Shown: in pieces, positions 17,848 through 64,000 of the stretch
Layout of the letters: each line of letters starts with the position of its first letter
Numbering within the stretch: the stretch's first letter is position 1
Source of the DNA: Candidatus Portnoybacteria bacterium
GTDB taxonomy: Bacteria; Patescibacteriota; Minisyncoccia; Portnoybacterales; GWB1-42-6
Assembly: GCA_016208745.1 (NCBI GenBank)
Contig: JACQXN010000020.1
Coordinates: 9,062 to 73,061 of the forward strand
Length of the DNA stretch: 64,000 nt
Direction of reading: 5' to 3'
Position numbers and translations under genes: made by a program
Notes under the pieces: generated by a model
The model's database searches: none
Told to the model about the DNA's origin: nothing
What the model saw: the letters and a program-made list of their open reading frames with translations, nothing else

Positions 17848-17932
17848 TTGTGCAACCGGTAACTTGATCAATCGTTGCACAGTCTATTAAATCTCCCCTA
17901 GCCCCTCCTAAAGGAGGGGAATTACTCCTTAT

Positions 17933-26879: not shown

Positions 26880-26963
26880 TGCCGCTGGTCGGAGTCGAAC
26901 CGACATGAGCTTGCGCTCACAGCATTTTGAGTGCTGCGTGTCTGCCAGTTTCACCACAGCGGC
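26880..26963 (-). tRNA. tRNA-Leu (anticodon CAA), class II with a long variable arm
   Basis: Folded by hand from the reverse complement. Acceptor GCCGCTG/CAGCGGC, D-stem GTG/CAC, anticodon stem CAGCA/TGCTG with loop CTCAAAA, variable arm TGAGCGCAAGCTCAT, T-arm GTCGG-TTCGACT-CCGAC, discriminator A. CCA is not encoded. Confidence 0.85.
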
Positions 26964-27003
26964 GCGACCTTCTTTAGATTTATCTTATTTGGATAACTGC
27001 TAT

Positions 27004-35577: not shown

Positions 35578-37695
35578 TTATACGTTCTCATAATTTCTAA
35601 CGAGGTCCACCGCTTCATTCAGCATCTGGATATATAGATTAAGCCCCACGGCGTTGATTTGGCCTGATTGTTCGCGGCCCAAGATATTGCCTGCCCCGCG
35701 GATTTCCAAATCGCGCAGAGCGATTTGATAGCCAGAACCAAGCGCTTGCGCTTCTTTTAGCGCGTCTAATCTTTGTTGCGCAATGTCGGTCAGATTTTTT
35801 TCATTATACAAAAAATAGGCATAGGCCTGTTTATCAGAGCGCCCAATTCTGCCTCGCAATTGATAGCTTTGGGCCAGGCCAAGTTTTGTCGCGTTTGCAA
35901 CAATTAGAGTATTAACATTGGGAAAATCCAAGCCGTTTTCAATAATTGTTGTGGCCACTAGAATATCAATCTTTTTTTCGCCAAAATCATCCATCACTTT
36001 TATCAATTGTTTTTCGTTCATGCGGCCGTGAGCAATAGCAATATAAATTTTCCCCCCCTCCTTTTTAAAGCCTGCCTGTCCGGTAGGCAGGGAGGGGTGG
36101 GGTGGATTTTTTGAATTATCTCCATCCGTAGAATAAATCCCTCCCAGCCTCCCTTTAAAAAGGGAGGAGTTTTTTAGTAATTTCTCAATCTGCTTCTTTG
36201 CCAGTTCAATTGTTTCAATCCGATTATGCAGATAATAAATTTGTCCGCCTCGCTTTAATTCAAATTCAATCGCTTTTTTAATTGTTTTTGGTGAATAGGG
36301 TTCAATAAATGTTTTAACTGCCAATCGGCCGGGCGGCGCGGTTTGAATTAAACTGATATCGCGCAAGCCGGTTAAAGATAAATGCATTGTTCTTGGGATA
36401 GGCGTGGCGCTCAAACTTAAAATATCTATGTTGGCGCGCATTTCTTTAAATCGCTCTTTTTGTTTAACGCCAAATCTTTGTTCCTCATCTATTATAACTA
36501 GTCCAAGACTTGGAAACTCTACGTCTTTTTGAATGAGACGATGGGTGCCAATAACAATATCAGTCTGGCTGTCTTTAATTTGTTTTATGGTTTGAGCCTG
36601 ATTCTTTTTTGATTCCAATCTTGAAAGCAGCGCGATATTAATTGGAAATTTTTTAAGCCGGTTTAAAAAATTATGATAATGCTGGTGGGCTAAAATGGTT
36701 GTTGGCGTGATTAAAGCTACCTGTTTGCCAGCAGTTACTGCTTTAAAAGCCGCGCGCAAAGCGATCTCTGTTTTGCCAAAACCAACATCCCCGCAAATTA
36801 ATCTGTCCATTGGTTTTTCCGATTCCATATCTTTTTTAACGTCTCTCATAGCAGACAATTGATCTTCGGTTTCAATATATAAAAAAGAATCTTCCAGCTC
36901 TTTTTGCAAAGCGTCATCTGGCGGAAATTTAAAACCAGAAACTGCTGCGCGCTTGGCATAAATCTCCAATAATTCTTTAGCCAGATTCAAGGCGCTTTCT
37001 TTGATTTTTCTTTTGGTTTTATACCAGAGCGTTCCGCCAAGGCGATGCACAATCGGCGTTTCAAAGCCAATGTATCTGGTTAATTTTTCTTCCAGTTCAA
37101 GCGGCACATAAAGCCGGTCATTTTTGGCGTATTCTAAAACGAAATATTTTTCTTGACTCTCGGGCGTCGGCGAGTTAAAAGAAAGCTCGCCACCTAGTTC
37201 TTTGGCAAAGCCCTTAAAAATGCCAATGCCATGGTCCAGATGAACCAGATATTCATTCGGTTTTAAATTTGCCAGAAGTTGCGAAGGCGCTTGTTTTTTA
37301 AGGGCTTTCTTGATTGTTTCTGGCTTTTCGTCGATTTTAATTTCAAGAGAAAAAATTTCAGCCAGCTCATTGCCGGAAAATTCAAGGCGCAAGGCCGAAT
37401 CCATATTTATCGGAAAAATATCTAAGATCCCGCCGCGTTGGGAGAGCTCGCCGGGTCTAGCCAATGTTTGCACGCGCTCATAACCAAAATTAGTCAGTTT
37501 TCTTAATAGCTCAAATAGATTTATTCTCTGATTTTTTTCTAAAAAGATCGTATTATCCTTCCACCAGATCTGGGTTTTAGCTACTTCTTCTATTTTTTTT
37601 TGGTTTTCGGAGAACCAAAAGATATCCCGATCTAGGAAATACGGCGACAAGCTTGCAATTAGAATTTTAGTTGGATTTTTACTTTCTGATATCAT
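35578..37695 (-). CDS. mfd: Transcription-repair coupling factor Mfd, compact 705-aa form, carrying an in-frame palindromic-repeat insertion
   Basis: UvrB-homology region (ARPGELSQRGGILDIFP), SF2 helicase motifs (GDVGFGKTEIALRA, DEEQRFGV) and the TRG motif. The insertion ...KGRLGGIYSTDGDNSKNPPHPSLPTGQAGFKKEGG... is encoded by a CCTCC-family element at about 36050-36172. Confidence 0.8.
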   Translation of the reverse strand: MISESKNPTKILIASLSPYFLDRDIFWFSENQKKIEEVAKTQIWWKDNTIFLEKNQRINLFELLRKLTNFGYERVQTLARPGELSQRGGILDIFPINMDSALRLEFSGNELAEIFSLEIKIDEKPETIKKALKKQAPSQLLANLKPNEYLVHLDHGIGIFKGFAKELGGELSFNSPTPESQEKYFVLEYAKNDRLYVPLELEEKLTRYIGFETPIVHRLGGTLWYKTKRKIKESALNLAKELLEIYAKRAAVSGFKFPPDDALQKELEDSFLYIETEDQLSAMRDVKKDMESEKPMDRLICGDVGFGKTEIALRAAFKAVTAGKQVALITPTTILAHQHYHNFLNRLKKFPINIALLSRLESKKNQAQTIKQIKDSQTDIVIGTHRLIQKDVEFPSLGLVIIDEEQRFGVKQKERFKEMRANIDILSLSATPIPRTMHLSLTGLRDISLIQTAPPGRLAVKTFIEPYSPKTIKKAIEFELKRGGQIYYLHNRIETIELAKKQIEKLLKNSSLFKGRLGGIYSTDGDNSKNPPHPSLPTGQAGFKKEGGKIYIAIAHGRMNEKQLIKVMDDFGEKKIDILVATTIIENGLDFPNVNTLIVANATKLGLAQSYQLRGRIGRSDKQAYAYFLYNEKNLTDIAQQRLDALKEAQALGSGYQIALRDLEIRGAGNILGREQSGQINAVGLNLYIQMLNEAVDLVRNYENV

Positions 37696-40052: not shown

Positions 40053-41138
40053 CTATTGGTTTTTATCAATAAATTCCTGTATCTCCTCATAGTTTTCCAA
40101 TCCCGCTTTCGGTTTTAAAATTGATGCCTGTTCGTTGCCTAGCCAAATTTGTCCGGAGGCTAGCAGGTTATTTTCGTCTCTGTCAATTACAATATTTTTA
40201 ATATTATCCGGCGAAATATTTTTGGCGATTTGCCAAAATTGCGGCACTTCTGTTAAGGGGAGATTGGTTTTTGTCTGGCTCCAAATATTATTTAAAACCT
40301 TTAGCAACGAAGGCAAATCCCAAACAGGATGGAGGCCAGCCACTTTTTGTTTTAAAGCTTCAAGCACTTGTTGTTGGCGTCCGATTCGGTCGAAATCTCC
40401 AGCGACGCTGTGCCTTGTCCGGACATATTTTGAGGCGGTTTCGCCGTCCATATACCGCCAGCCAGCCTGAATTTGGAAAGTTTGATAAGAATGATTCGGA
40501 CCGGGAAATTGCGGGTCGTAGATATCTTTTTCCACCCAGACATTAATTCCGCCCAAACTATCAATCACTTTTTTGACAACCGACAAATCAACAAAAACAT
40601 AATAATCAATTTTTTGGCCGGTTATCTCTTCTACTTCTTGTTTTACAAGTTCTAGTCCATAATTTTCATCTTTGGAGTTTTTCCCTAAAGCATACAGCGA
40701 GTTAATTTTAGCATAAAAATTAGTTTCTGGAACTTTAACCCAAAGATCGCGGGGGATTGAAATTAAGGTGGCGTCGTTTGAGGAGCTGGGATTAATTTTT
40801 GCCAGAACAATTGTATCAGTCAAATCCGGCGCGTCATTGCCCGGACCAGCCGCGCCCAAAAGCAAAATGTTAATTTCTTCTTGAGACGACGAAAAACTGG
40901 ATGGCAGAAAAGAGGCCGCTAATTTTTTAAAACTTGTCTGGCTAGCCTTTTCTTTGTTGGCGAGGTTCTTTCCTTGTGATCGAGAAACGTCTTTAACGAA
41001 AAATTTTGGCAGAAAGAAAAATAGAGCGACAAGAGTAATAAAGACAAGAAGCCAGAGCCAGATTTTTTTGGATTTGGTCGATTGGCTTCCTAGGTCGCCT
41101 TGTACTATTTGATTAAATTGGTTTAGATAATCAGCCAT
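40053..41138 (-). CDS. LytR-CpsA-Psr (LCP) family cell-envelope glycopolymer transferase
   Basis: An N-terminal TM followed by the LCP core (ILLLGAAGPGNDAPDLTDTIVLAKIN...ISIPRDLWV...YVRTRH...DFDRIGRQQQVL). Confidence 0.85.
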   Translation of the reverse strand: MADYLNQFNQIVQGDLGSQSTKSKKIWLWLLVFITLVALFFFLPKFFVKDVSRSQGKNLANKEKASQTSFKKLAASFLPSSFSSSQEEINILLLGAAGPGNDAPDLTDTIVLAKINPSSSNDATLISIPRDLWVKVPETNFYAKINSLYALGKNSKDENYGLELVKQEVEEITGQKIDYYVFVDLSVVKKVIDSLGGINVWVEKDIYDPQFPGPNHSYQTFQIQAGWRYMDGETASKYVRTRHSVAGDFDRIGRQQQVLEALKQKVAGLHPVWDLPSLLKVLNNIWSQTKTNLPLTEVPQFWQIAKNISPDNIKNIVIDRDENNLLASGQIWLGNEQASILKPKAGLENYEEIQEFIDKNQ

Positions 41139-54162: not shown

Positions 54163-54257
54163 ATAATTATTTCCCCCTTTATAAAAGGGGGATTCAGGGG
54201 GATTTTTAAAATCCCTCCCAGCCTCCTTTTTTCAAGGGAGGAGTAAGAAAACAAATA

Positions 54258-55718: not shown

Positions 55719-55768
55719 TTGTCCGGCCTTTATTTTCAGGAAGTTATCCACAATAAACTTTTGACGTC

Positions 55769-56240
55769 TTGACAGCATTTTACTATTTGCTAAACTAATA
55801 TAACGCCTTAAAAAGGCGCTAAAAAACCATAGATTAAAATTAGAAAACAAAATTAGAATTTAGATTTAAACCACCTACGGAGGGTAGCGAGAATCGTAAT
55901 GCAAGAGCCCGATAAGCTCACACATTACATACTGATTGACTAGAAGGGTGGTTTTTTTATTTTCTCGTCAAAAATTTCAAGTGTTAACGCAGAAATTTTT
56001 GTAACGAGAAAATAACCCCGCATTTATTCTTACCAAAGGGCAAGAAGACCAGTAAACGAAGGCGCAGGTCTCAAGGCCGGAGCCGTTTCGCGCAATAATA
56101 CAGAAATAGATAAACTTGGCTGGAATAAGTGCGGGGTTGAAAACAGAATTTATTGTCCGCATACCCGCCGTCGCCAAGGCTTTGGCGGGCAGGCGCGGGA
56201 GATTCTTCTCCGTCCGCAAATGCGGACGGAGAAGAATGAC
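55769..56240 (+). ncRNA. Copy A of a conserved promoter plus structured non-coding element of unknown class
   Basis: Promoter TTGACA-16-TAAACT, then hairpin H1 (AAACCACC...GGTGGTTT plus T-run), hairpin H2 (16-bp stem), a domain H3 closed by a 15-bp stem ACCCCGCAYTTATTC/GAATAAGTGCGGGGT, and a 17-bp perfect hairpin at 56195-56236. It is homologous to 62808-63205 with compensatory changes. Confidence 0.5.
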
Positions 56241-56548
56241 AGAAGAAAGTTAATCCAAATTTTAACATCCGATTGTTAATCTGGCGCATAGGGGGCGAAG
56301 TTCTATAAATAATTTTTTTATAAATCCCTCCCAACCTCCCCTAAAGGGGAGGAGTAAAAAATTCCCCTCCTTTAGGAGGGGTTAGGGGAGATTTAGTAAA
56401 AGGTCGACATTGCCTGCTTTCCGCTTTTAGCGGTTTTCTGCCAAAAGCAGGGCAGTGAACTAGCACATTTTAAAAATAAAGGCAGAAAACAGATATTAAC
56501 GAATTGCGGATTAACGAATTTTAACGCGTTAGTTCGTTAATTCATAAA

Positions 56549-57412
56549 ATGATACAAAAATCTATGAAAAAAGTTTTCGTTACCTTAACAGTTTTATCGT
56601 TAATGGTATTGACGGCGGCTCCTGCTTTGGCTGGTCATCGTCCTTCAAGACACCAAATGCCAGCTAATGACAGCGATATCACAATTAATATTGATAATGA
56701 GGCGACTGTTACCAACATCGTTTCTGTCGGAGCTTACACCGGCGGCAATACCTCTAAAGGCGATGACGGCGGCGACGGCGGCGACAGCGGCGAAGCAGAA
56801 GTTGAAGGAGCTAAAGGCACTGCCACTTCCGGCGACGGCGGCGACGGCGGCGACGGCGGCAATGGCGGCACAATCACCTCTGGTGATGCAGATGCGAGCG
56901 CCTATATTGCTAACGTAGTTAATACCAATTTGACTTCAGTTGATGCTTGCGGTTGCGAAGAAGGAGAAGAGGAAGATGGCTGTGGATGTGAAGATCCTTG
57001 CGGCTGTCAGTCTCGCTGCGGCGGCTCTCAACAAGGGGATGACTGTGGTTGCATTGATGACATCAAAGTTGACATAGAAAACAAAAAGACTGATGTTAAC
57101 AACAATGCAGGAGTTATGGCCGACACAGGTTTAAATGAATCCAAAGGCGATGACGGCGGCAATGGCGGCGACAGCGGCGAAGCAGAAGTTGAAGACCAAG
57201 ACAAAGACAGAGACAACAGATGGCATCGCGGCGGCTGCAATACTTGCGGCAGTGATTCAGAAGACAGCGAATGCTGCCCTGAAGCCACTTCAGGTGATGC
57301 AGGCGATGGCGGCGACGGCGGCAATGGTGGTGAAATCACCAGCGGCGCAGCTGCGGCTACAGCCAAAGTATTTAATCTGGTTAACACCACTGTTACCAGA
57401 GTTCGCAGATAA
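56549..57412 (+). CDS. Secreted Gly/Asp/Cys-rich repeat protein
   Basis: Signal peptide, two internal repeats (SKGDDGGxGGDSGEAEVE...TSGDAxxxAxxxNxVNTxxT), and a CGC-rich metal-binding-like segment. The antisense ORFs are spurious. Confidence 0.6.
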   Translation: MIQKSMKKVFVTLTVLSLMVLTAAPALAGHRPSRHQMPANDSDITINIDNEATVTNIVSVGAYTGGNTSKGDDGGDGGDSGEAEVEGAKGTATSGDGGDGGDGGNGGTITSGDADASAYIANVVNTNLTSVDACGCEEGEEEDGCGCEDPCGCQSRCGGSQQGDDCGCIDDIKVDIENKKTDVNNNAGVMADTGLNESKGDDGGNGGDSGEAEVEDQDKDRDNRWHRGGCNTCGSDSEDSECCPEATSGDAGDGGDGGNGGEITSGAAAATAKVFNLVNTTVTRVRR

Positions 57413-57737
57413 CTATTTTTTGCGAAACGAGCAGGAGAAGCTTTCGGGCTTCTCCTCTCGGATAAGCTCTTAATTTATTTCCCCCTTTTTAAAGGGGGAT
57501 AAAGGGGGATTTAAAAAGACAAATCTAAATCCACCCCTCCCCTCCTTTAAAAAGGAGGGGAGGAATATCGATTGATAGCTTATGCGAGGGAAAAATGCCA
57601 GAATTTCTAATTACTCCGCCCAAGGCGGATCCGCCTCTGGCGGATAATTCAATCCCAATGCCCAATGTCAAGATTTAAAAATTAGACATTTGGGAACTAA
57701 ATATTTTATTGGAAATTAGGAATTATTTAAGAAATTT

Positions 57738-58346
57738 ATGGAGGTAAAGACGAGAAAAATTTTAAAAGTTATTTTACTTTTTTCATTAGTTTTGCCTCTG
57801 TCAGCCCAAGCGGCGTTGTTTGACGATTTTGTTAGCGGGATTGAAGATTGGGTTTCTGAACAAACAGGCAGTCAAACAAATAGTTCGGGCAATGTCCAGA
57901 TAAAAAACGAAGTAAAAGTTGAAGCTTCAACCGGCGGAAATTCTGTTGGTTCAGGCGGGGAAATTAAACAGGGCGAACAAAAAACCGAAATTGAAATAAA
58001 AAACATTATCAACGGACAGGAAATAGAGCCGGTTAATATTAATTCTTCAAGCAGCAAGGCAAAAGTGGAAATAAAAATAGAGGCCAATGATGGAAAAATT
58101 GAAGTTGAAAGAGAAATTGAAGTTGATTCGGAAAAAAGCGAGCAGAATTACCAGATTAATGCGGATAATCAAAATTCCCAAGATGATGCAAGCTCGCAAG
58201 AGTCTGCTGGCGCAGGCACAGATAGCGGCGTAGAAACGGAAAAGGAAAATATATTGGAAAAAACCGCAACAACAACTTCGGATTTCTTTTCAGCGATTTT
58301 TGAAAGCATAAAATCTTTTTTTGAAAATATATTTAGTATTTTTTAG
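57738..58346 (+). CDS. Secreted hypothetical protein sharing the (S/T)GGNS motif
   Basis: Signal peptide with a cleavage site ...LSAQA; acidic with low complexity. Confidence 0.5.
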   Translation: MEVKTRKILKVILLFSLVLPLSAQAALFDDFVSGIEDWVSEQTGSQTNSSGNVQIKNEVKVEASTGGNSVGSGGEIKQGEQKTEIEIKNIINGQEIEPVNINSSSSKAKVEIKIEANDGKIEVEREIEVDSEKSEQNYQINADNQNSQDDASSQESAGAGTDSGVETEKENILEKTATTTSDFFSAIFESIKSFFENIFSIF

Positions 58347-58544
58347 ATTCACTGAATCATAAAGCGGGCATTTTTTGCCTCCCCTCCTCAGATGAGGAGG
58401 GGAATTAAAGGGGTGGTGGTGACCTTAATAATTCAACACCCCACCCTACCCCTCCCCTCATCTGAGGGGAGGGAAGACGCCTATTTTATAATTCAATGTT
58501 AAGCCAATATTTTAATCTAACTCCGGAGGGAAGTTATATCGGTT

Positions 58545-61349
58545 ATGAAAGCCAAACAGAGCAGGAGGGGAGATAATTGTTTTTTAACTAATTTAACTCG
58601 GGGAAAACAGAAAAACTTTATTTTAATTCCCTTACTGGTTATCAGTTTGGTGGTTTTTAATTTTCCCGCCATATCGGTTTTAGCCGAAGAAGTCCCGACT
58701 GACGCGCCAGCAGACACAACTTTAAGCCAAGATGCGCCAGCGCCTGCAGAAACTCCTGCGCCAACGGAAAATCCTGCTCCGCCGGAAGATGTGGTTATTG
58801 ACACCGGGGACGCCAATGGCGGCATTGAGGTTGAAAACTCTGTTAACACCAATATCGCCCAGCTTGGCGATCCGGCAGAAAGCCAGACAGACTGGTCAGA
58901 GCTTGAAGGAGAAGTCCAAGGACAGGCTGATGAAGCCGCTCAAACAGAGGCTGAAGAAACCGGTGAAACTGAAACTCAAGAGACCGCAGAAACTTTAGGC
59001 GACAATCCTCCAGCCGAGCCAGAAGAAGAATTGGCTCAAGGCGTTGACAATAGCAATGACGAGGAAAATAATGACGGCCAAAACACACTCGATATTACAA
59101 ATGATAATCAGGCTGATGTTGGAAACGACGTTGTTGGAGTCGGCTCAACCGGCGACAATCAAGCAGAGGGCGAAGCTTGCGACGTTGATATTAATACCGG
59201 CGCTGTCAATTTATACACCTATTTAATAAATATCGTTAACACCAATATTTTTGCCTCTGATTTCTCCCAGTTTTTGTTAAATCTTTTTGAGGGTTTGCAA
59301 GGCGATATTGATTTATCCAGCGAAATTGCTTCTTCGGCAGAAGGATGCCTAGGCGATGATTGCATAGACAATATTAATATCACCAATAATAACAACGGCA
59401 CAACGACCAACGATGTTTTGCTTGACGGCTCAAGCGGGGGAAACACCGCGCAAAGCAATGGCGGATCGGCAACTATTAACACCGGCGATGTTAATGTGGT
59501 GGCCAATGTTTTAAATATCTTAAACTCCAATATCGTTGGCGCAAACTGGACTCAATTTATCATCAATGTTTTTGGCGATTGGATGGGCGATTTGGTTTTG
59601 CCCGGCAAGGACCAGATGCAGGATCAATTTGGCAATAGCGGCTCTGCCTGCTGCGGCGATTTGTCCATTACCAATTCAAATCAAGGCCAGATAATAAATG
59701 ATGTTAGCGTTATTTCAGACACCGGTTTAAACACAACGCAAGGCGATGGCGGCTCAATTAACACCGGCGACGCGCAAGCGGATGTTAATGTTTTCAATAT
59801 CGCCAATACCAATATAACCGGCAATAATTTCTTTTTGATGAAGGTTAATAATTTTGGCGACTGGAACGGCAGTATTTTCAGTCTGCCGCCCGGATTTTTC
59901 ATTAGCCAAGACGGAATGGGCTTTGAAATTATAAACGCTGGTTCAAGCAGCGGCGTGGGAATTTCTGGCAGCGACTTAAATATCACCAACAATAACGCCG
60001 GCGCGATTATAAACAGAGTAATCATCAATGCCTTTACCGGCGGAAACACCGCTCAATCATCAGGCGGCTCTGCTTCAATTAATACCGGCGATGCCCAAGC
60101 GATAGTCAATTTGATGAATATTATGAATACCAATATCGTGGGCAATAATTTCCTTTTGGGCATGGTTAATATTTTTGGCAACTGGCAGGGCAATTTGGCC
60201 TTTGGCCGGCCAGACAACTGGATTGGTTCCTCTGCCGCCACCCTGCCTGATCCGGTCAGCCCGGGCGGCGAAATTGCCTATAACCTGGCCTACACTAACA
60301 AAGGCAATGCCGATGCGAGCAATGTTTTGGTCAAAGCCGGCTTCAATAAGGGGATTGTGGAAATCTTAAATAGCGGCGGCGGCTTTATTGACGAAGCAGC
60401 CGGCGAAATTATCTGGAATGTTGGCGATTTATCAATCGGCGAAACCGGCGCAGTTTCCTATGCTGTCCAGGTTAAAGATGATGTGCAAAATGACGTAAAA
60501 ACAATTGATACCACTTCTTCCATTTCAAGCCTTGAGAGCGACAATAACAGCCAAGACAACACAGACACTCTTTCGGTGGCTCTTTATCGCGGCAGTTCTT
60601 TGGGCGCTTTGGTTGGCGGGCCAAACGAAACTTTGCCGAATATGAAATTAACTCAAGCCAACAATGCTTATGATGGCGCCTGGCAAGGTGGCAGCATTAG
60701 TTTCTCTACCAAGCTTTTTAACGATAGTTCGGGCTCTTCTTATGACACGATTCTTTACAATAACATCCGATCAGTTTCTTCAACCGATATTCTAGACACC
60801 CAGCAATGGAATTTGGGCAAAGTTTTTCCCAATGAAGAGATAACAATTGATTTTGCCATTGTGGTTGGCGAAAATTTGCCGCCGGGCGAGTATCTAAGCT
60901 TTACCCAGGCGGCTGGCAAAGATGCTTCTGGCAACGCCAGCTATTCAACTATTGCTTCAAGCGTATTTAAAGTTGTAGAAGCTCCGGATACTGAAAATGT
61001 CGCGTCAGAAGAGGCAGCCGAGCTGAATGAAGAAGAGAATTCACAAAACAATATTGTGTCGGACATAAAAGATGTGGTTCAGGAAATATTAGCGCCTCTT
61101 AGACCAAAAACCATTAGCGCTTCGGATGAAAATGGGCCAGCAGTTGTTCGCGAAGTTTCAGCTTCAAACGAACAAGGTGGCGTTTTAGGGGATTTGCAAG
61201 AAGAGTCAAATAACAGACGCAGCTTAAATCTTTTTTCAGCGATTGGGTCTTTGGGCTGGTGGGGCTGGCTGATTATATTGGCTATCTTGGCAGCATTCTT
61301 GATTCTTCTGTTTTTGACAAAGAAAAGGAAAAAGGAAGAATCTTATTAG
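58545..61349 (+). CDS. Large cell-surface protein with four tandem ~60-aa repeats and a C-terminal TM anchor
   Basis: N-terminal TM/signal, an acidic Pro/Glu-rich linker, four copies of ...GGNTAQSxGGSAxINTGDxxAxVNxxNIxNTNIxGNNF..., and a C-terminal LGWWGWLIILAILAAFLILLFL-KKRKK anchor. Confidence 0.75.
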   Translation: MKAKQSRRGDNCFLTNLTRGKQKNFILIPLLVISLVVFNFPAISVLAEEVPTDAPADTTLSQDAPAPAETPAPTENPAPPEDVVIDTGDANGGIEVENSVNTNIAQLGDPAESQTDWSELEGEVQGQADEAAQTEAEETGETETQETAETLGDNPPAEPEEELAQGVDNSNDEENNDGQNTLDITNDNQADVGNDVVGVGSTGDNQAEGEACDVDINTGAVNLYTYLINIVNTNIFASDFSQFLLNLFEGLQGDIDLSSEIASSAEGCLGDDCIDNINITNNNNGTTTNDVLLDGSSGGNTAQSNGGSATINTGDVNVVANVLNILNSNIVGANWTQFIINVFGDWMGDLVLPGKDQMQDQFGNSGSACCGDLSITNSNQGQIINDVSVISDTGLNTTQGDGGSINTGDAQADVNVFNIANTNITGNNFFLMKVNNFGDWNGSIFSLPPGFFISQDGMGFEIINAGSSSGVGISGSDLNITNNNAGAIINRVIINAFTGGNTAQSSGGSASINTGDAQAIVNLMNIMNTNIVGNNFLLGMVNIFGNWQGNLAFGRPDNWIGSSAATLPDPVSPGGEIAYNLAYTNKGNADASNVLVKAGFNKGIVEILNSGGGFIDEAAGEIIWNVGDLSIGETGAVSYAVQVKDDVQNDVKTIDTTSSISSLESDNNSQDNTDTLSVALYRGSSLGALVGGPNETLPNMKLTQANNAYDGAWQGGSISFSTKLFNDSSGSSYDTILYNNIRSVSSTDILDTQQWNLGKVFPNEEITIDFAIVVGENLPPGEYLSFTQAAGKDASGNASYSTIASSVFKVVEAPDTENVASEEAAELNEEENSQNNIVSDIKDVVQEILAPLRPKTISASDENGPAVVREVSASNEQGGVLGDLQEESNNRRSLNLFSAIGSLGWWGWLIILAILAAFLILLFLTKKRKKEESY

Positions 61350-61691
61350 TTTTTTGAGGCTGAGTTTGTCTAATAATAACTTGATTAGCCACAAATCCTC
61401 CCTCGCCTCGCTTAAGCTCCGGCGAAGCGGGCCAGCCCTCCCCCGTATCAAGTACGGGGCAAGCTCTAAAGGGAGGGAGCAGGGATTATTCCCCTCCTTT
61501 AGGAGGGGTTAGGGGAGATTTAGATTGGTGTAAGAGTTAATTAATTTCAGGAACCATCGCAGATTACATTATTATTCATTAAACCCTAGGCTATTATTTG
61601 TTTGACAGGATTCCTTGAGGCGGTAAAATGATAAATAAACATCGCTTTTTTTGCAGCGGGCGAGTTTTAATAATTATTAAAACTATAAAAA

Positions 61692-62566: not shown

Positions 62567-62807
62567 TCTTTTTTCCTCCTCTCAGACTTGCCCCGTTCAG
62601 CGGGGTGAAGGAGAGGTAGGGTGGGGTGTTGAAAAGACAAATTTTACAATAATTCCCTCTCCTCAGTTGAGGAGAGGGGAAGGGTGAGGTGATGTTTTCA
62701 AATCAACACCACCCCCAACCCCTCCTCATCTGAGGAGGGGAGGAATCATTTTAGGGTTTTCCACAGATTTCTCCACATTTGGTTCACTTTTCATAAACAG
62801 CGCGATT

Positions 62808-63205
62808 TTGACGCTGTTTTTTTGTTTGGTTAAACTGATATAACGGGCTGGAAAAAGCGAGATTTTTTTCATCTGAAATTAATCTTTGTTATTTTAGAAT
62901 GCGATTGGGACATGATTATTTTATTTTAATTTTTTCAATTAGTTAAAAAACCACCTAATTATCAATAACTATGCTGAGGGAAAAACCCAAAATTGCATTT
63001 ATAGTTAGCTGAAAAGAAAGGGTGGTTTTTATTTGTTTGTCAAAATTTTAGAACTCGCCGCAGCGAGCGATAAAAATTTTATAACAAACAAATAACCCCG
63101 CACTTATTCTTACCAAAGAGCAAGAATGTCAAAGAACAAAGGCGTAGCCGTTTCGTGCGATAAGACGGAAATAAGAATACTTGGCTGGAATAAGTGCGGG
63201 GTAAC
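62808..63205 (+). ncRNA. Copy B of the conserved promoter plus structured non-coding element
   Basis: Promoter TTGACG-17-TAAACT and H1/H2/H3 homologous to copy A. The H2 stem is TTTGTTTGT/ACAAACAAA where copy A has TTCTCGT/ACGAGAA, a compensatory change. Spurious ORFs are called over it. Confidence 0.5.
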
Positions 63206-63410
63206 TCCCGATAAATAATTGCTCTCTCTATCAGAAAGTCCTTGATAGGTGGGGGAAAAGGTCGAAAAGTGGCTTCCCTTGGTTCTGCAGAAACGGAGCT
63301 AAGGCGAGCCACTTTAAGTAAAAAATTAATAAATTAGTCAATTAACGAATTAAAGAATTAACGAATTAAATCCGTTAATCCGTTAATGCGTTAATAAATA
63401 ATAATTAATA

Positions 63411-64000
63411 TGAAGAAGATTATATTAAGTTTAAGCATTATCGCGGCGGCCGCGGCAGTGGTCATCGGCGTCACGACTTCATTTTTTTCCGACACCGAAA
63501 CTTCCAGCGGCAACACCTTTACCGCTGGCGACATTGATCTCCAGATTGATAATGAAAGTTATGTGACTAATGAAGACGGAATATTGGTTGCGAGCCCTAA
63601 TACGAGCTGGGATTTAGCAGATCTTACAATAGAAAAATTTTTTGATTTTGATGATCTAAAACCCGGCGACATTGGCGAGGATACAATTTCAATTCATATT
63701 GGCTCAAACGACGCATGGGTTTGCGCTGCGGCAAGAATTACCGCAGACGAAGATGTTACGTGTACTGAGCCAGAAGGCGATGACGATTCAAATTGCGCCG
63801 AGTCGGGCGCGGGGCTTGGAGAGTTAGATGAAGAAATAAATTTTGCATTTTGGGTAGACGATGGTGATAACGTGCTTGAGGATAATGAGGTTAGCTCTAT
63901 TTTTCTCGAAGGACCATTAAGCGGAATTGGCGCGCAGGGGCAAATTACCTTGGCGGATTTCGATGAATCGATTCTTCCAGACAAAGGTCCTATTCCGGGC
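63411..64000 (+). CDS. TasA/camelysin-like protein with a SipW-cognate-class signal peptide; 3' end truncated by the window edge
   Basis: MKKIILSLSIIAAAAAVVIGVTTSFFSDTETSSGNTFTAGDIDL matches the SipW-cognate N-terminal signature (FSDTETS...N.F.AG.LDL). No stop codon before the window ends. Confidence 0.7.

What the first reader, a model, noticed from the sequence alone, without database searches (positions are those of the whole stretch)
55769..56548. Conserved promoter and ~400-nt structured non-coding element occurs twice, each upstream of a different secreted surface-protein gene
Two loci, 55769-56240 and 62808-63205, share the same architecture:
- A promoter TTGAC(A/G)-16/17-TAAACT followed by RATATAACG.
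- H1, a hairpin closed by AAACCACC/GGTGGTTT with a T-run (terminator-like) and a large variable loop.
- H2, a 16-18-bp stem whose sequence differs between copies but stays paired: TTCTCGTcAAAAATTT/AAATTTTTgtaACGAGAA in copy A and TTTGTTTGTcAAAATTTT/AAAATTTTataACAAACAAA in copy B.
- H3, a ~125-nt domain closed by a perfect 15-bp stem ACCCCGCAYTTATTC...GAATAAGTGCGGGGT, with conserved interior blocks TTACCAAAGRGCAAGAA, AAAGGCGYAG, GCCGTTTCGYGC and ACTTGGCTGG.

The compensatory base changes argue for selection on structure rather than a recent duplication. Each element lies about 250-400 bp upstream of a signal-peptide protein gene: the Gly/Asp/Cys-rich protein at 56549 and the TasA-like protein at 63411. 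These two downstream genes are not paralogues. I could not match the element to any RNA class I know (not RNase P, SRP, tmRNA, 6S by sequence, T-box, or a group I/II intron domain). It could be an sRNA, or a riboregulatory leader/attenuator (H1 looks like an intrinsic terminator) controlling surface-protein expression.
Basis: seen in the sequence. Interest (0 to 1): 0.85.

Follow-up and report, generated by a model that had tools for sequence, protein, structure and literature searches.

The report
Duplicated structured leader of surface-protein genes
Two unrelated secreted-protein genes in an uncultivated Portnoybacteria (CPR) genome are each preceded by the same 570-760-base promoter-plus-hairpin region, which matches no described RNA family and is most likely a cis-regulatory RNA leader with a built-in terminator; parts of it recur before surface-protein genes of other CPR bacteria.

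Summary
Copy A (55769-56137) and copy B (62808-63202) share a sigma-70-type promoter, a terminator-like hairpin H1, a hairpin H2 with 4 two-sided compensatory changes and no broken pair, and a 110-125-nt domain H3.

The shared architecture runs further than reported. Both copies continue, in the same order, to the start codon with an AAAAGGTCGA motif between hairpins and then a TTAACG/CGTTAA hairpin.

No Rfam family matches. H3 was found nowhere else: not in GTDB species representatives, JGI metagenomes, IMG/VR, phages, plasmids or 185 kb of related CPR loci.

One distant relative (L017) has a homologous promoter-H1 unit but a different hairpin in place of H3. The order promoter, intrinsic terminator, A(A/U)GGUCG(A/C) motif, start codon recurs in several independent CPR surface-protein leaders.

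Best reading (confidence about 0.45): a modular cis-acting 5' leader. H1 would act as an attenuator. H2, H3 and the proximal motif would act after transcription, and the role of H3 is unknown.

There are only two or three sequences and no transcript data, so the function is inferred. The element is a new, lineage-restricted member of a known kind.

The parts
55744..55752 (+). Copy A: TTATCCACA motif upstream of the -35 hexamer; candidate transcription-factor site.
   Evidence: Sequence. The same TTATCCACA-N5-TTGACA-N6-CTTGACAG arrangement precedes promoter P2 in L017.
55769..55805 (+). Copy A promoter: TTGACA-16-TAAACT plus the conserved start region AATATAACG.
   Evidence: Consensus scan 10/12 with TG before the -10 hexamer. 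71% identical to copy B across the block.
55868..55963 (+). Copy A H1: long irregular hairpin closed by AAACCACC/GGTGGTTT, followed by the U tract T7-A-T4. Intrinsic-terminator-like.
   Evidence: Folds. The base is 8/8 identical to copy B, while the interior is only 49% identical. A homologue exists in L017.
55960..56012 (+). Copy A H2: 9+8-bp hairpin with a conserved asymmetric internal loop (C opposite GUA).
   Evidence: versus copy B, 13 pairs identical, 4 compensated on both sides, 0 broken.
56015..56137 (+). Copy A H3: 16-bp closing stem (2 G.U pairs), a CCAA/UUGG helix, and a largely unpaired purine-rich interior with conserved blocks. Carries a 15-nt insert that extends a GGC/GCC hairpin.
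   Evidence: CM R1 scores 166.9 bits on + and 28.8 bits on -.
56138..56397 (+). Copy-A-specific insert between H3 and the proximal motif. Includes a 17-bp perfect hairpin (56201-56237) and REP-like CCCTCC/GGAGGG palindromes (56316-56401).
   Evidence: Alignment gap. Self-blast hits of the palindromes to 61466-61523, 17885-17923, 36133-36170 and 54203-54250..
56398..56407 (+). Copy A proximal motif AAAAGGTCGA, single-stranded between hairpins.
   Evidence: Exact 10-mer found only at the two loci in the window. The core A(A/T)GGTCG(A/C) is present in 7 independent CPR leaders.
56408..56457 (+). Copy A hairpin following the motif. Its sequence is unrelated to copy B's hairpin at the same place.
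   Evidence: Centroid fold; sequence.
56496..56540 (+). Copy A TTAACG x3 and CGTTAA x1 repeat hairpin. It ends 8 or 23 nt before the candidate start codons at 56549 and 56564.
   Evidence: Exact TTAACGAAT occurs only at the two loci in the window.
62760..62777 (+). Copy B: two TCCACA motifs upstream of the promoter.
62808..62845 (+). Copy B promoter: TTGACG-17-TAAACT plus GATATAACG.
   Evidence: Scan 9/12. No other + strand promoter-like site lies between H1 and the ATG at 63410; the only other + strand candidate (62873-62900) is upstream of H1.
62948..63035 (+). Copy B H1: long hairpin closed by AAACCACC/GGTGGTTT, followed by T5-A-T3.
63032..63092 (+). Copy B H2 hairpin (C opposite AUA internal loop).
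63095..63202 (+). Copy B H3 domain.
   Evidence: CM R1 scores 141.7 bits on + and 33.4 bits on -.
63222..63315 (+). Copy B proximal module: hairpin (63222-63255), AAAAGGTCGA (63256-63265), 21-pair hairpin (63266-63315).
   Evidence: Fold z = -6.0.
63342..63394 (+). Copy B TTAACG x2 and CGTTAA x3 repeat hairpin. It ends 15 nt before the ATG at 63410.
56564..57412 (+). Downstream gene of copy A: secreted Gly/Asp/Cys-rich repeat protein (HY764_03520). It is the first gene of a conserved three-gene cluster with a ~200-aa protein and a ~930-aa CLIPPER/DUF7927 protein.
63410..64000 (+). Downstream gene of copy B: TasA/camelysin-like (Peptidase_M73) secreted protein, cut off by the window end.

Best explanation
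The two loci are paralogous copies of a long promoter-plus-5'-leader region. The leader is about 760 nt in copy A and about 570 nt in copy B. Each copy drives a different secreted surface or matrix protein gene in a Candidatus Portnoybacteria genome.

Proposed mechanism:
1. A sigma-70-type promoter, with TCCACA-type sites upstream that may bind a transcription factor, starts a + strand transcript.
2. The first structured element, H1, is a long hairpin with a U tract and acts as an intrinsic terminator (attenuator). Only RNA polymerase that reads through it reaches the gene. Termination efficiency at H1 therefore sets, or regulates, the output.
3. Read-through transcripts carry two very stable hairpins, H2 and H3.
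4. They then carry a single-stranded (A)AAGGUCGA motif displayed between hairpins.
5. They end with a TTAACG/CGUUAA hairpin just before a start codon that lacks a Shine-Dalgarno sequence. I propose these later elements act after transcription, on processing, mRNA stability or translation, as in the long leaders of other abundant surface-protein mRNAs.
6. H3 is the only module conserved in sequence, unpaired interior included. I infer it is recognised by a common trans partner (protein, RNA or ligand), or is released as a leader-derived small RNA. Its role is unknown.

Shown here: the conservation pattern, the hairpins, the compensatory changes, the terminator features, the strand, the absence of a promoter-like site between H1 and the start codon in copy B, and homologous or analogous leaders in other CPR bacteria.

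Inferred: transcription itself, termination and its control, and the roles of H2, H3 and the motif.
For: - Collinear blocks run from the promoter to the start codon in both copies. Conserved blocks are 71-100% identical; intervening segments are 34-49% identical.
- H1 has A-run/CCACC...GGUGG/U-run terminator anatomy in window A, window B and L017.
- Strand evidence: G.U pairs in H3, a G.U pair in L017 H1 where the window has A-U, and two G.U pairs in the L017 second terminator all fit the + strand only. The U tract is consistently on the + strand. The covariance model (CM) R1 scores 142-167 bits on + and 29-33 bits on -.
- H2 has 4 two-sided compensatory changes and 0 disruptions in 17 pairs.
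- The 15-nt indel in H3 is a self-paired extension of a hairpin loop.
- Copy B has no + strand promoter-like site between H1 and the ATG. The upstream gene has its own terminator.
- The order promoter, + strand intrinsic terminator, A(A/U)GGUCG(A/C), ATG recurs in L017, L009 and L011.
- TasA-type operons in L004 and L006 also have a + strand terminator 49 and 20 nt before the first ATG.
- The motif lies 90-254 nt upstream of the ATG in 7 independent leaders.
- Both 900-nt intergenic regions are exceptional in an otherwise compact housekeeping region.
Against: - There are no transcript data, so the promoter, termination and read-through are all predictions.
- I found no conserved alternative (antiterminator) pairing for H1 by inspection.
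- The segment 5' of H1 is not conserved (42% identity) and is only about 13 nt in L017. If H1 is regulated, the sensor is not evident.
- H2 and H3 lie downstream of H1, so they cannot control it. The model leaves the best-conserved module without a defined role.
- Copy A has weak promoter-like sites nearer the gene, at 55936 and 56521.
- Many genes in this genome appear to be leaderless, with a -10 box just before the ATG. A gene-proximal, non-consensus promoter therefore cannot be excluded.
- Nearly all stem pairs are Watson-Crick, as a DNA palindrome would also show.
- There are only 2 sequences for H2/H3 and 3 for H1, so there is no statistical covariation test.
Confidence: 0.45

Rival explanations
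1. An independent small RNA gene. The conserved promoter and the H1 terminator delimit a 150-190-nt sRNA (about 90 nt in L017) encoded just upstream of its likely target gene. The protein genes would be transcribed from their own, unrecognised promoters. H2 and H3 would belong to the mRNA leader, or to a second RNA.
For: - A promoter followed by a canonical U-tract hairpin forms a complete small transcription unit in window A, window B and L017.
- L017 and L009 have two such units in tandem.
- The start region RATATAACG is conserved between the two copies.
Against: - The body of the putative sRNA is not conserved. The 5' segment is 42% identical and the H1 interior 49%, so there is no seed-like block.
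- No consensus promoter lies between H1 and the ATG in copy B.
- In L006 the leader terminator ends 20 nt before the ATG, which leaves no room for a promoter.
- This reading does not explain the conserved collinear blocks downstream of H1.
Confidence: 0.2
2. A constitutive stabilising or processing 5' UTR, without regulated termination. This is the pattern in S-layer genes and Bacillus thuringiensis cryIIIA (recalled knowledge: a long leader is processed to a stable 5' end near a Shine-Dalgarno-like STAB-SD element). H2 and H3 would be RNase III or 5'-end-protecting hairpins. AAAGGUCGA would be a processing, standby or STAB-SD-like site that gives long-lived mRNAs for abundant surface proteins.
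For: - H2 and H3 have long, nearly perfect helices of 17 and 16+4 pairs.
- The motif is 90-254 nt upstream of the ATG and single-stranded between hairpins in 7 leaders.
- Its AAAGG resembles the 5' part of a Shine-Dalgarno sequence.
- The downstream genes encode secreted structural proteins and lack their own Shine-Dalgarno sequence.
Against: - It does not explain why an intrinsic terminator sits between promoter and gene in every leader examined.
- Only 5 nt of the motif would match a canonical anti-Shine-Dalgarno sequence, and the 16S rRNA of this organism was not available.
- Sequence conservation of the unpaired H3 interior is not needed for a mere stabiliser.
Confidence: 0.2
3. A DNA-level element rather than an RNA. 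The inverted repeats would be protein-binding or cruciform sites, an invertible (phase-variation) segment flanked by the 16-bp H3 arms, or a MITE-like insertion.
For: - Stems are almost entirely Watson-Crick.
- H3 looks like 16-bp inverted repeats flanking about 95 bp, upstream of surface-protein genes, which is where invertons typically sit.
- The genome carries dispersed REP-like palindromes.
Against: - The G.U pairs would be A.C mismatches in DNA or on the opposite strand.
- No promoter-like site lies inside H3 in either orientation.
- No recombinase or transposase is among the 28 neighbouring genes annotated.
- There is no target-site duplication.
- H3 occurs only twice, both times in the same homologous context, and nowhere else.
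- The H3 interior has the same orientation in both copies.
Confidence: 0.07
4. A non-functional remnant of one segmental duplication of an intergenic region, with the apparent blocks kept alike by patchy gene conversion.
For: - Only two copies exist, 7 kb apart in direct orientation, in one genome.
- H3 has no homologues elsewhere.
Against: - The flanking genes are not paralogous.
- The sharply patchy conservation and the 4/4 compensated changes in H2 are not expected from neutral decay.
- The promoter/H1 unit and the proximal motif are conserved in relatives whose proteins are only 40-57% identical.
- CPR genomes are compact, and 900-nt spacers are exceptional in this window.
Confidence: 0.05

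Closest known systems
Transcription-attenuation leaders (intrinsic terminator between promoter and ORF, as in riboswitch, T-box and protein-mediated antitermination leaders such as bgl/sac, trp and pyr)
   Same: - A promoter, then a hairpin with a U tract, then the gene.
- No other recognisable promoter between H1 and the start codon in copy B.
- The same order in several related CPR leaders.
   Different: - No match to any Rfam leader or riboswitch.
- No conserved sensor 5' of the terminator and no conserved antiterminator alternative.
- The terminator hairpin is unusually long, with a 60-70-nt interior.
- 200-430 nt of further conserved structure lies between the terminator and the start codon.
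Long stabilising 5' UTRs of abundant surface or secreted-protein mRNAs (S-layer genes; B. thuringiensis cryIIIA STAB-SD; recalled knowledge, not tested here)
   Same: - Leaders of several hundred nucleotides with stable hairpins.
- A short purine-rich single-stranded motif (AAAGG...) about 100-250 nt upstream of the start codon.
- Downstream genes that encode secreted structural proteins.
   Different: - The motif is not a full Shine-Dalgarno complement.
- A terminator is present in the leader.
- No processing data exist.
RfaH ops / JUMPStart and other leader elements for processive antitermination (EAR RNA of the Bacillus eps operon, LoaP leaders; recalled knowledge)
   Same: - A short conserved motif in the long leader of operons for surface or extracellular structures.
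- The copy A operon contains hairpins between its genes (57540, 58382, 58450) that a processive antiterminator could bypass.
   Different: - The sequence is unrelated to ops (GGCGGTAG).
- There is no Rfam EAR hit.
- The motif lies downstream, not upstream, of the leader terminator.
- No NusG paralogue was seen among the 28 neighbouring genes checked.
REP/MITE-like dispersed palindromes
   Same: - H3 has 16-bp inverted arms.
- The genome does contain a dispersed palindrome family (CCCTCC-N3-12-GGAGGG, 11 copies against 0 expected), one of which sits inside copy A's insert.
   Different: - H3 occurs only twice, in homologous context.
- It has G.U pairs and a conserved non-palindromic interior.
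- It has no target-site duplication.

Membership tests
Any Rfam 15 RNA family (riboswitches, leaders, sRNAs, ribozymes, 6S, SRP, RNase P, tmRNA, EAR and others) | Covariance-model score at or above the family's gathering threshold. | tested here: not met
   - The whole window at gathering threshold gives only tRNA-Leu at 26880-26963.
- E-value mode on both loci gives only far-sub-threshold miRNA/sRNA noise, mostly on unrelated palindromes.
- Eight related loci give no hit.
Intrinsic-terminator attenuator leader | A stem directly followed by a U tract on the transcribed strand, located between promoter and ORF. | tested here: met
   - H1 in copy A: CCACC/GGUGG followed by U7AU4.
- H1 in copy B: the same stem followed by U5AU3.
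- H1 in L017: the same stem followed by U5GU4.
- Analogous leader terminators occur in L017, L009, L011, L004 and L006.
Intrinsic-terminator attenuator leader | No independent promoter between the terminator and the gene. | tested here: inconclusive
   - Copy B: none on the + strand by consensus scan.
- Copy A: two weak 9/12 sites, at 55936 and 56521, not conserved in copy B.
- Non-consensus promoters cannot be excluded.
Intrinsic-terminator attenuator leader | A mutually exclusive antiterminator structure, or a defined factor or ligand sensor. | tested here: not met
   - No conserved alternative pairing for either H1 arm was found by inspecting copies A, B and L017.
- The 5' segment is 42% identical and only about 13 nt long in L017.
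- This was inspection only, not an exhaustive computation.
Intrinsic-terminator attenuator leader | Demonstrated premature termination and conditional read-through. | not testable with these tools
   Needs Term-seq, RNA-seq or in vitro transcription.
Trans-acting small RNA gene | Own promoter and own terminator. | tested here: met
Trans-acting small RNA gene | A conserved single-stranded seed or body sequence. | tested here: not met
   The segment from transcription start to H1 is 42% identical and the H1 interior 49% identical between the copies. Both are unrelated in L017.
MITE / mobile insertion (H3) | Terminal inverted repeats, a target-site duplication, and dispersed copies in unrelated contexts. 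| tested here: not met
   - Inverted arms are present.
- There is no target-site duplication.
- Only two copies exist, in homologous context.
- No copy was found in GTDB representatives, JGI metagenomes, IMG/VR, phages or plasmids.
Invertible promoter (inverton) | Inverted repeats flanking a promoter-bearing segment, with a site-specific recombinase. | tested here: not met
   - No promoter-like site lies inside H3 on either strand.
- The interior has the same orientation in both copies.
- No recombinase is among the 28 annotated neighbours.
- Read-level inversion evidence is not testable here.
STAB-SD-type mRNA stabiliser | A leader sequence complementary to the 3' end of 16S rRNA, far upstream of the start codon. 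| tested here: inconclusive
   - The motif (U)AAAGGUCGA shares only AAAGG with a canonical Shine-Dalgarno sequence.
- The 16S rRNA gene is not in the window.
- Genes in the window that do have a Shine-Dalgarno sequence use GGAGG.
RfaH ops / JUMPStart | The GGCGGTAG core in the leader and a NusG paralogue in the genome. | tested here: not met
   - The core sequence is absent from both leaders.
- No NusG/KOW protein is among the annotated neighbours.
- The rest of the genome is not available.

The most novel reading that the evidence does not exclude
H3 would be a new class of structured RNA domain: ligand-binding, protein-binding, or released as a leader-derived sRNA. It would coordinate expression of unrelated surface-filament genes in a Portnoybacteria lineage. 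It would sit within a previously undescribed CPR-wide post-transcriptional control system for surface-protein operons. That system would be marked by a leader terminator plus the single-stranded A(A/U)GGUCG(A/C) motif, which would serve as a recruitment or processing site for an unknown factor.
Probability: 0.2. Interest if true: 0.7.

Novelty: new member of a known kind. Interest (0 to 1): 0.5.

Why it matters
Gene regulation in CPR/Patescibacteria is almost unexplored, because most of these bacteria are uncultivated. Their surface filaments and matrix proteins are thought to mediate attachment to host cells.

This is a 570-760-nt conserved leader in a compact genome, shared by two non-paralogous surface-protein genes. 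It has echoes in distant CPR lineages: a leader terminator and the AAAGGUCGA motif. Together these point to a dedicated regulatory layer for such genes.

If confirmed, it would provide a first candidate cis-regulatory RNA system specific to CPR bacteria. It would also give concrete sequence handles (H1, H3 and the motif) for metatranscriptomic and biochemical tests.

Tried and rejected
Searches for homologues of the element that found nothing:
- Rfam at gathering threshold and in E-value mode on the window, both loci and 8 related loci. No family matched.
- DNA pattern CCAAAGNGCAAGAAN{45,75}CTTGGCTGG against GTDB species representatives. It returned two hits, both inside coding sequence and judged to be chance.
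- The 21-nt H3 3' block against JGI metagenomes and IMG/VR. No hits.
- blastn (distant mode) against phages and plasmids. No hits.
- blastn and nhmmer of both copies against all fetched loci. Only the AAAAGGTCGA region matched.
- Covariance model R1 of H3 over 185 kb (the window plus 12 loci). Only the two known copies scored.

Lookups that gave little or nothing:
- A protein-alignment scan of JGI metagenomes for Gly-rich protein relatives returned nothing usable.
- Exact-protein lookups for the source contig gave only short Logan contigs (L001, L007) that stop before the element.
- The closest TasA homologues (L004-L006, 66-68% identity) have a VWA gene in front of TasA and no H1-H3.

Ideas considered and rejected:
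- A minus-strand ORF through H3 (77 and 87 aa). Only the H3-derived residues are shared, and the frames differ in where they start and stop.
- Small leader peptides after AAAGG. Start codons are inconsistent across the 7 leaders.
- AAAGGTCGA as part of an ECF, sigma-28 or class II activator promoter. There is no consistent partner hexamer (inspection and flanks).
- An attC-like or K-turn reading of the H2 internal loop. The defining sequences are absent.
- The AAGGTCGC immediately 5' of tRNA-Leu (26971, minus strand). Probably chance: about 6-7 background matches are expected in the DNA scanned.

A possible 'arm swap' homology between the L017 hairpin and the window H3 arms (CACTTAT...TCTT) was noted but is too weak to use.
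Full report
**Observation**

- Promoter. Copy A has TTGACA-16-TAAACT (55769-55796). Copy B has TTGACG-17-TAAACT (62808-62836). Each is followed by RATATAACG. The consensus scan picks up both (10/12 and 9/12).
- H1. It is closed by AAACCACC/GGTGGTTT (55868-55954; 62948-63028) and followed by T7AT4 or T5AT3.
- H2 (55960-56012; 63032-63092). It has 17 pairs: 13 identical, 4 changed on both sides and still paired, none broken. A conserved asymmetric internal loop puts C opposite GUA or AUA.
- H3 (56015-56137; 63095-63202).

The exact blocks occur only at these two loci in the 64-kb window. blastn between the copies gives E = 2e-24. Each copy folds about 6 sd better than shuffled sequence.

Small corrections apply. 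The H3 stem is not a perfect palindrome, because it contains G.U pairs. The TasA-like ORF starts at 63410. The deposited Gly-rich protein starts at 56564.

**The shared architecture is longer than reported**

MAFFT missed the continuation because copy A carries about 260 extra nucleotides (56138-56397). That insert holds a 17-bp hairpin and REP-like palindromes that recur elsewhere in the window.

After this insert, both copies continue collinearly:
- AAAAGGTCGA at 56398 and 63256. This is the only exact occurrence of the 10-mer in the window.
- A long hairpin of unrelated sequence in each copy.
- An A/U-rich stretch.
- A hairpin built from TTAACG direct and CGTTAA inverted repeats (56496-56540; 63342-63394). 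It ends 8-23 nt before a start codon that lacks a Shine-Dalgarno sequence.

The homologous unit is therefore the whole region from promoter to start codon. That is about 760 nt in copy A and about 570 nt in copy B.

Conservation is sharply patchy:

| Segment | Identity, copy A vs copy B |
|---|---|
| Promoter | 71% |
| H1 3' base + U tract + H2 5' arm | 82% |
| H3 (including a 15-nt indel) | 75% |
| Segment 5' of H1 | 42% |
| H1 interior | 49% |
| H2 loop | 34% |

This pattern is not that of a recent neutral duplication.

**Origin and context**

The metalloprotease between the copies and the Gly-rich protein are 100% identical to HY764_03535 and HY764_03520. These belong to a Candidatus Portnoybacteria bacterium MAG, on a contig of 82,099 nt.

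The next-best relatives are only 57%, 55% and 70% identical for the protease, the Gly-rich protein and TasA respectively. The databases therefore hold no close relative.

The neighbourhood is chromosomal. It includes Mfd, Pth, an LCP-family protein, signal peptidase I, HisRS, YbeY, FtsA, FtsZ, a GT2 glycosyltransferase and three polysaccharide deacetylases. No recombinase, transposase or NusG paralogue appears among the 28 genes annotated.

Downstream of copy A lies a conserved three-gene cluster: the Gly-rich repeat protein, a ~200-aa protein and a ~930-aa CLIPPER/DUF7927 protein. The same cluster occurs in other CPR contigs. Downstream of copy B lies a TasA/camelysin-like protein.

**Known families**

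Rfam 15 gives nothing for the element. This holds at gathering threshold and in permissive E-value mode, where only far-sub-threshold noise appears on unrelated palindromes. Rfam also finds nothing in eight related loci.

**Search for homologues of H3**

All of these were negative:
- A pattern joining two interior H3 blocks, scanned over GTDB species representatives, hit only two coding sequences, judged to be chance.
- The invariant 21-nt 3' block has no match in JGI metagenomes or IMG/VR.
- blastn against phages and plasmids found nothing.
- A covariance model of H3 (R1) found only the two copies in 185 kb of window plus related CPR loci. It scored 142-167 bits on the + strand and 29-33 bits on the - strand.

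On present evidence H3 is private to this genome.

**A partial homologue: L017**

L017 is a 2,967-nt ENA contig that carries a protease 57% identical to the window's. Downstream of that protease lies a 750-nt spacer before a signal-peptide ORF. In order, the spacer contains:
1. P1, CTTGACA-17-TAAATT.
2. An H1 homologue: AAAAGCCACCAAGG...CTTGGTGGTTTTTGTTTTCTCTCAAAATTTT. It has the same CCACC/GGUGG base, the same U tract and the same 3' flank as the window. One A-U pair of the window is replaced by G.U.
3. A different 22-bp hairpin at the position of H2/H3, with no H3 interior.
4. P2, TTATCCACA-N5-TTGACA-N6-CTTGACAGG-N16-TAAAAT, strikingly like the region upstream of copy A (11/12).
5. A canonical terminator with two G.U pairs.
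6. More hairpins, then TAAAGGTCGA.
7. A hairpin whose arms contain CCGTTAAAT/ATTTAACGG, and then the ATG.

The promoter-H1 unit and the gene-proximal modules are therefore older than H3.

**A wider pattern in CPR leaders**

The core A(A/T)GGTCG(A/C) lies on the + strand, 90-254 nt upstream of the start codon, and is unpaired between hairpins. It is present in seven independent leaders: window A, window B, L008, L009, L011, L014 and L017.

- Three of these loci were chosen only because they encode Gly-rich protein homologues (40-55% identity).
- By my own estimate the pattern has a per-position probability of 1/65,536. Three of three within 250 nt upstream is then about 6e-8 by chance.
- The nine other matches in the DNA scanned are consistent with the 6-7 expected by chance.

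In L017, L009 and L011 the best promoter-like site is followed by a + strand intrinsic terminator, then the motif, then the gene. TasA-type operons in L004 and L006 also carry a + strand terminator 49 and 20 nt before their first ATG. In L006 the upstream gene is on the other strand, so that terminator cannot serve it.

A terminator inside the leader thus seems to be a recurrent feature of CPR surface-protein operons.

**RNA or DNA, and which strand**

The evidence favours a + strand RNA:
- The U tract follows H1 on the + strand in all three H1 copies. On the - strand this holds clearly only for copy B.
- H3 has an invariant U.G pair, plus a U.G in copy A where copy B has C-G.
- The L017 H1 has a G.U pair where the window has A-U, and the second L017 terminator has two G.U pairs. 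All of these would be A.C mismatches on the other strand or in a DNA cruciform.
- The 15-nt indel in H3 is a self-paired extension (GGUC-UCAA-GGCC) of the GGC/GCC hairpin loop. This is how RNA helices typically grow.

The counter-argument is that nearly all pairs are Watson-Crick. With two or three sequences there is no statistical power, so an R-scape-type test was not possible.

**Mechanism**

I favour a cis-acting leader (confidence about 0.45).

The main argument is topological. In copy B no + strand promoter-like site lies between H1 and the start codon, and the upstream gene has its own terminator. Expression of the TasA-like gene would therefore require read-through of H1. The same topology recurs in unrelated-sequence leaders of homologous operons. 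That topology is the signature of attenuation.

What controls read-through is not visible:
- I found no conserved antiterminator.
- The segment 5' of H1 is neither conserved nor, in L017, long enough to hold a sensor.

Control would therefore have to come from a trans factor acting on H1 itself, or H1 may be a constitutive partial terminator.

H2 and H3 lie downstream of H1 and cannot control it. H2 and the proximal hairpins conserve only their pairing, which fits roles such as 5'-end protection or RNase III processing.

H3 conserves its sequence, unpaired interior included. This implies recognition by a shared partner, or release as a leader-derived RNA. Its function remains the main open point.

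The AAAGGUCGA motif could be a processing or standby site, a STAB-SD-like site or a factor-recruitment site. These analogies come from recalled knowledge and were not tested.

**Rivals**

| Rival reading | Confidence | Main objection |
|---|---|---|
| Independent sRNA from promoter to H1 | 0.2 | The RNA body is not conserved, and the gene lacks a downstream promoter |
| Constitutive stabilising leader | 0.2 | Does not explain the recurrent terminators |
| DNA-level inverton, MITE or operator | 0.07 | G.U pairs; no internal promoter, recombinase, target-site duplication or dispersed copies |
| Neutral duplication remnant | 0.05 | Patchy conservation, compensated changes, and conservation in distant relatives |

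**Verdict**

The finding is real and is more extensive than reported. It is best described as a new, lineage-restricted member of a known kind, a structured regulatory 5' leader, rather than a single 400-nt RNA.

It is moderately interesting. It offers testable handles on surface-protein regulation in CPR bacteria, and it exposes a wider leader motif. Function, however, rests on inference from very few sequences.

Noticed in passing
window 56398-56407 and 63256-63265; L008 ~49; L009 ~9871; L011 ~7948; L014 ~442; L017 ~2781: A short motif, consensus GGG-UAAAGGUCGAAAAG with core A(A/T)GGTCG(A/C). It is unpaired between hairpins, 90-254 nt upstream of the start codon, in seven independent leaders of secreted-protein genes from different CPR lineages. 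It matches no Rfam family, and I could not assign a function.
   Followed up: partly
window 56496-56540 and 63342-63394; L008 ~80-140; L017 ~2816-2868: TTAACG(A/G)AT direct repeats and CGTTAA inverted repeats form a hairpin that ends 8-25 nt before the start codon. Exact TTAACGAAT occurs only at the two loci in the window. They could be an RNA hairpin or operator half-sites.
   Followed up: partly
window 17903, 21313, 22137, 27864, 55648, 56365, 57540, 58382, 58450, 61492, 62720: A dispersed REP-like palindrome family, CCCTCC-N3-12-GGAGGG, with 11 copies against 0 expected in shuffles. All copies are intergenic and many sit just after genes, without a clear T-run. One lies inside copy A's insert, and several lie between the genes of the surface-protein cluster.
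   Followed up: partly
window, start regions of most genes (e.g. 48438, 40053-41138 on the minus strand, 27040, 13152): Most genes lack a Shine-Dalgarno sequence, and many have a TATAAT-like box 7-13 nt before the ATG. This suggests widespread leaderless or very short-leader mRNAs in this genome. A minority of genes use a canonical GGAGG.
   Followed up: no
window 55744-55752 and 62760-62777; L017 ~2167-2190 and 2432-2440; L009 9040-9125; L011 7510-7600: Repeated GTCC-type motifs lie around the leader promoters:
- TCCACA or TTATCCACA in the window.
- TGTGGAC-N7-GTCCACA in L017.
- TTGTCCTA/TAGGACAA arrays in L009.
- GTCC/GGAC arrays in L011.
They look like binding sites of a related family of transcription factors controlling these operons.
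   Followed up: no
L004 8328-8363; L006 8320-8343; L009 9681-9711; L011 7854-7867; L017 2616-2644: Plus-strand intrinsic terminators sit inside the leaders of surface-protein operons of other CPR bacteria. In L006 the terminator is only 20 nt before the first ATG. These operons are Gly-rich/CLIPPER clusters and VWA-TasA-LTD-sortase clusters.
   Followed up: partly
window 56564-61349; L009 10001-14519; L011 8038-11562: A conserved three-gene cluster: a secreted Gly/Asp-rich protein, a ~200-aa protein, and a 930-1017-aa CLIPPER/DUF7927 protein. The Gly-rich protein has an internal duplication (DIxVxNxNxAxVxN...GGDGGNGGxIxTGxAxA...VNTNxT), a Cys-rich linker and no Pfam match.
   Followed up: partly
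window 61602-61631: A strong promoter-like site, TTGACAGG-N15-TAAAAT, lies about 60 nt upstream of the metalloprotease gene. It has the same TTGACAG flavour as the leader promoters and L017 P2.
   Followed up: no
window 26964-26971 (minus strand): AAGGTCGC lies immediately 5' of the mature end of tRNA-Leu(CAA). It resembles the leader motif but is probably a coincidence.
   Followed up: no
L017 2860-2967: The gene called on the minus strand at the contig end is probably wrong. The plus strand has an ATG at 2885 followed by a typical signal peptide (MKKLIAVLMVLAVASW...) directly after the leader.
   Followed up: no
window 56201-56237: A perfect 17-bp hairpin, GATTCTTCTCCGTCCGC-AAAT-GCGGACGGAGAAGAAT, with no T-run on either strand, lies within the copy-A-specific insert.
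   Followed up: no
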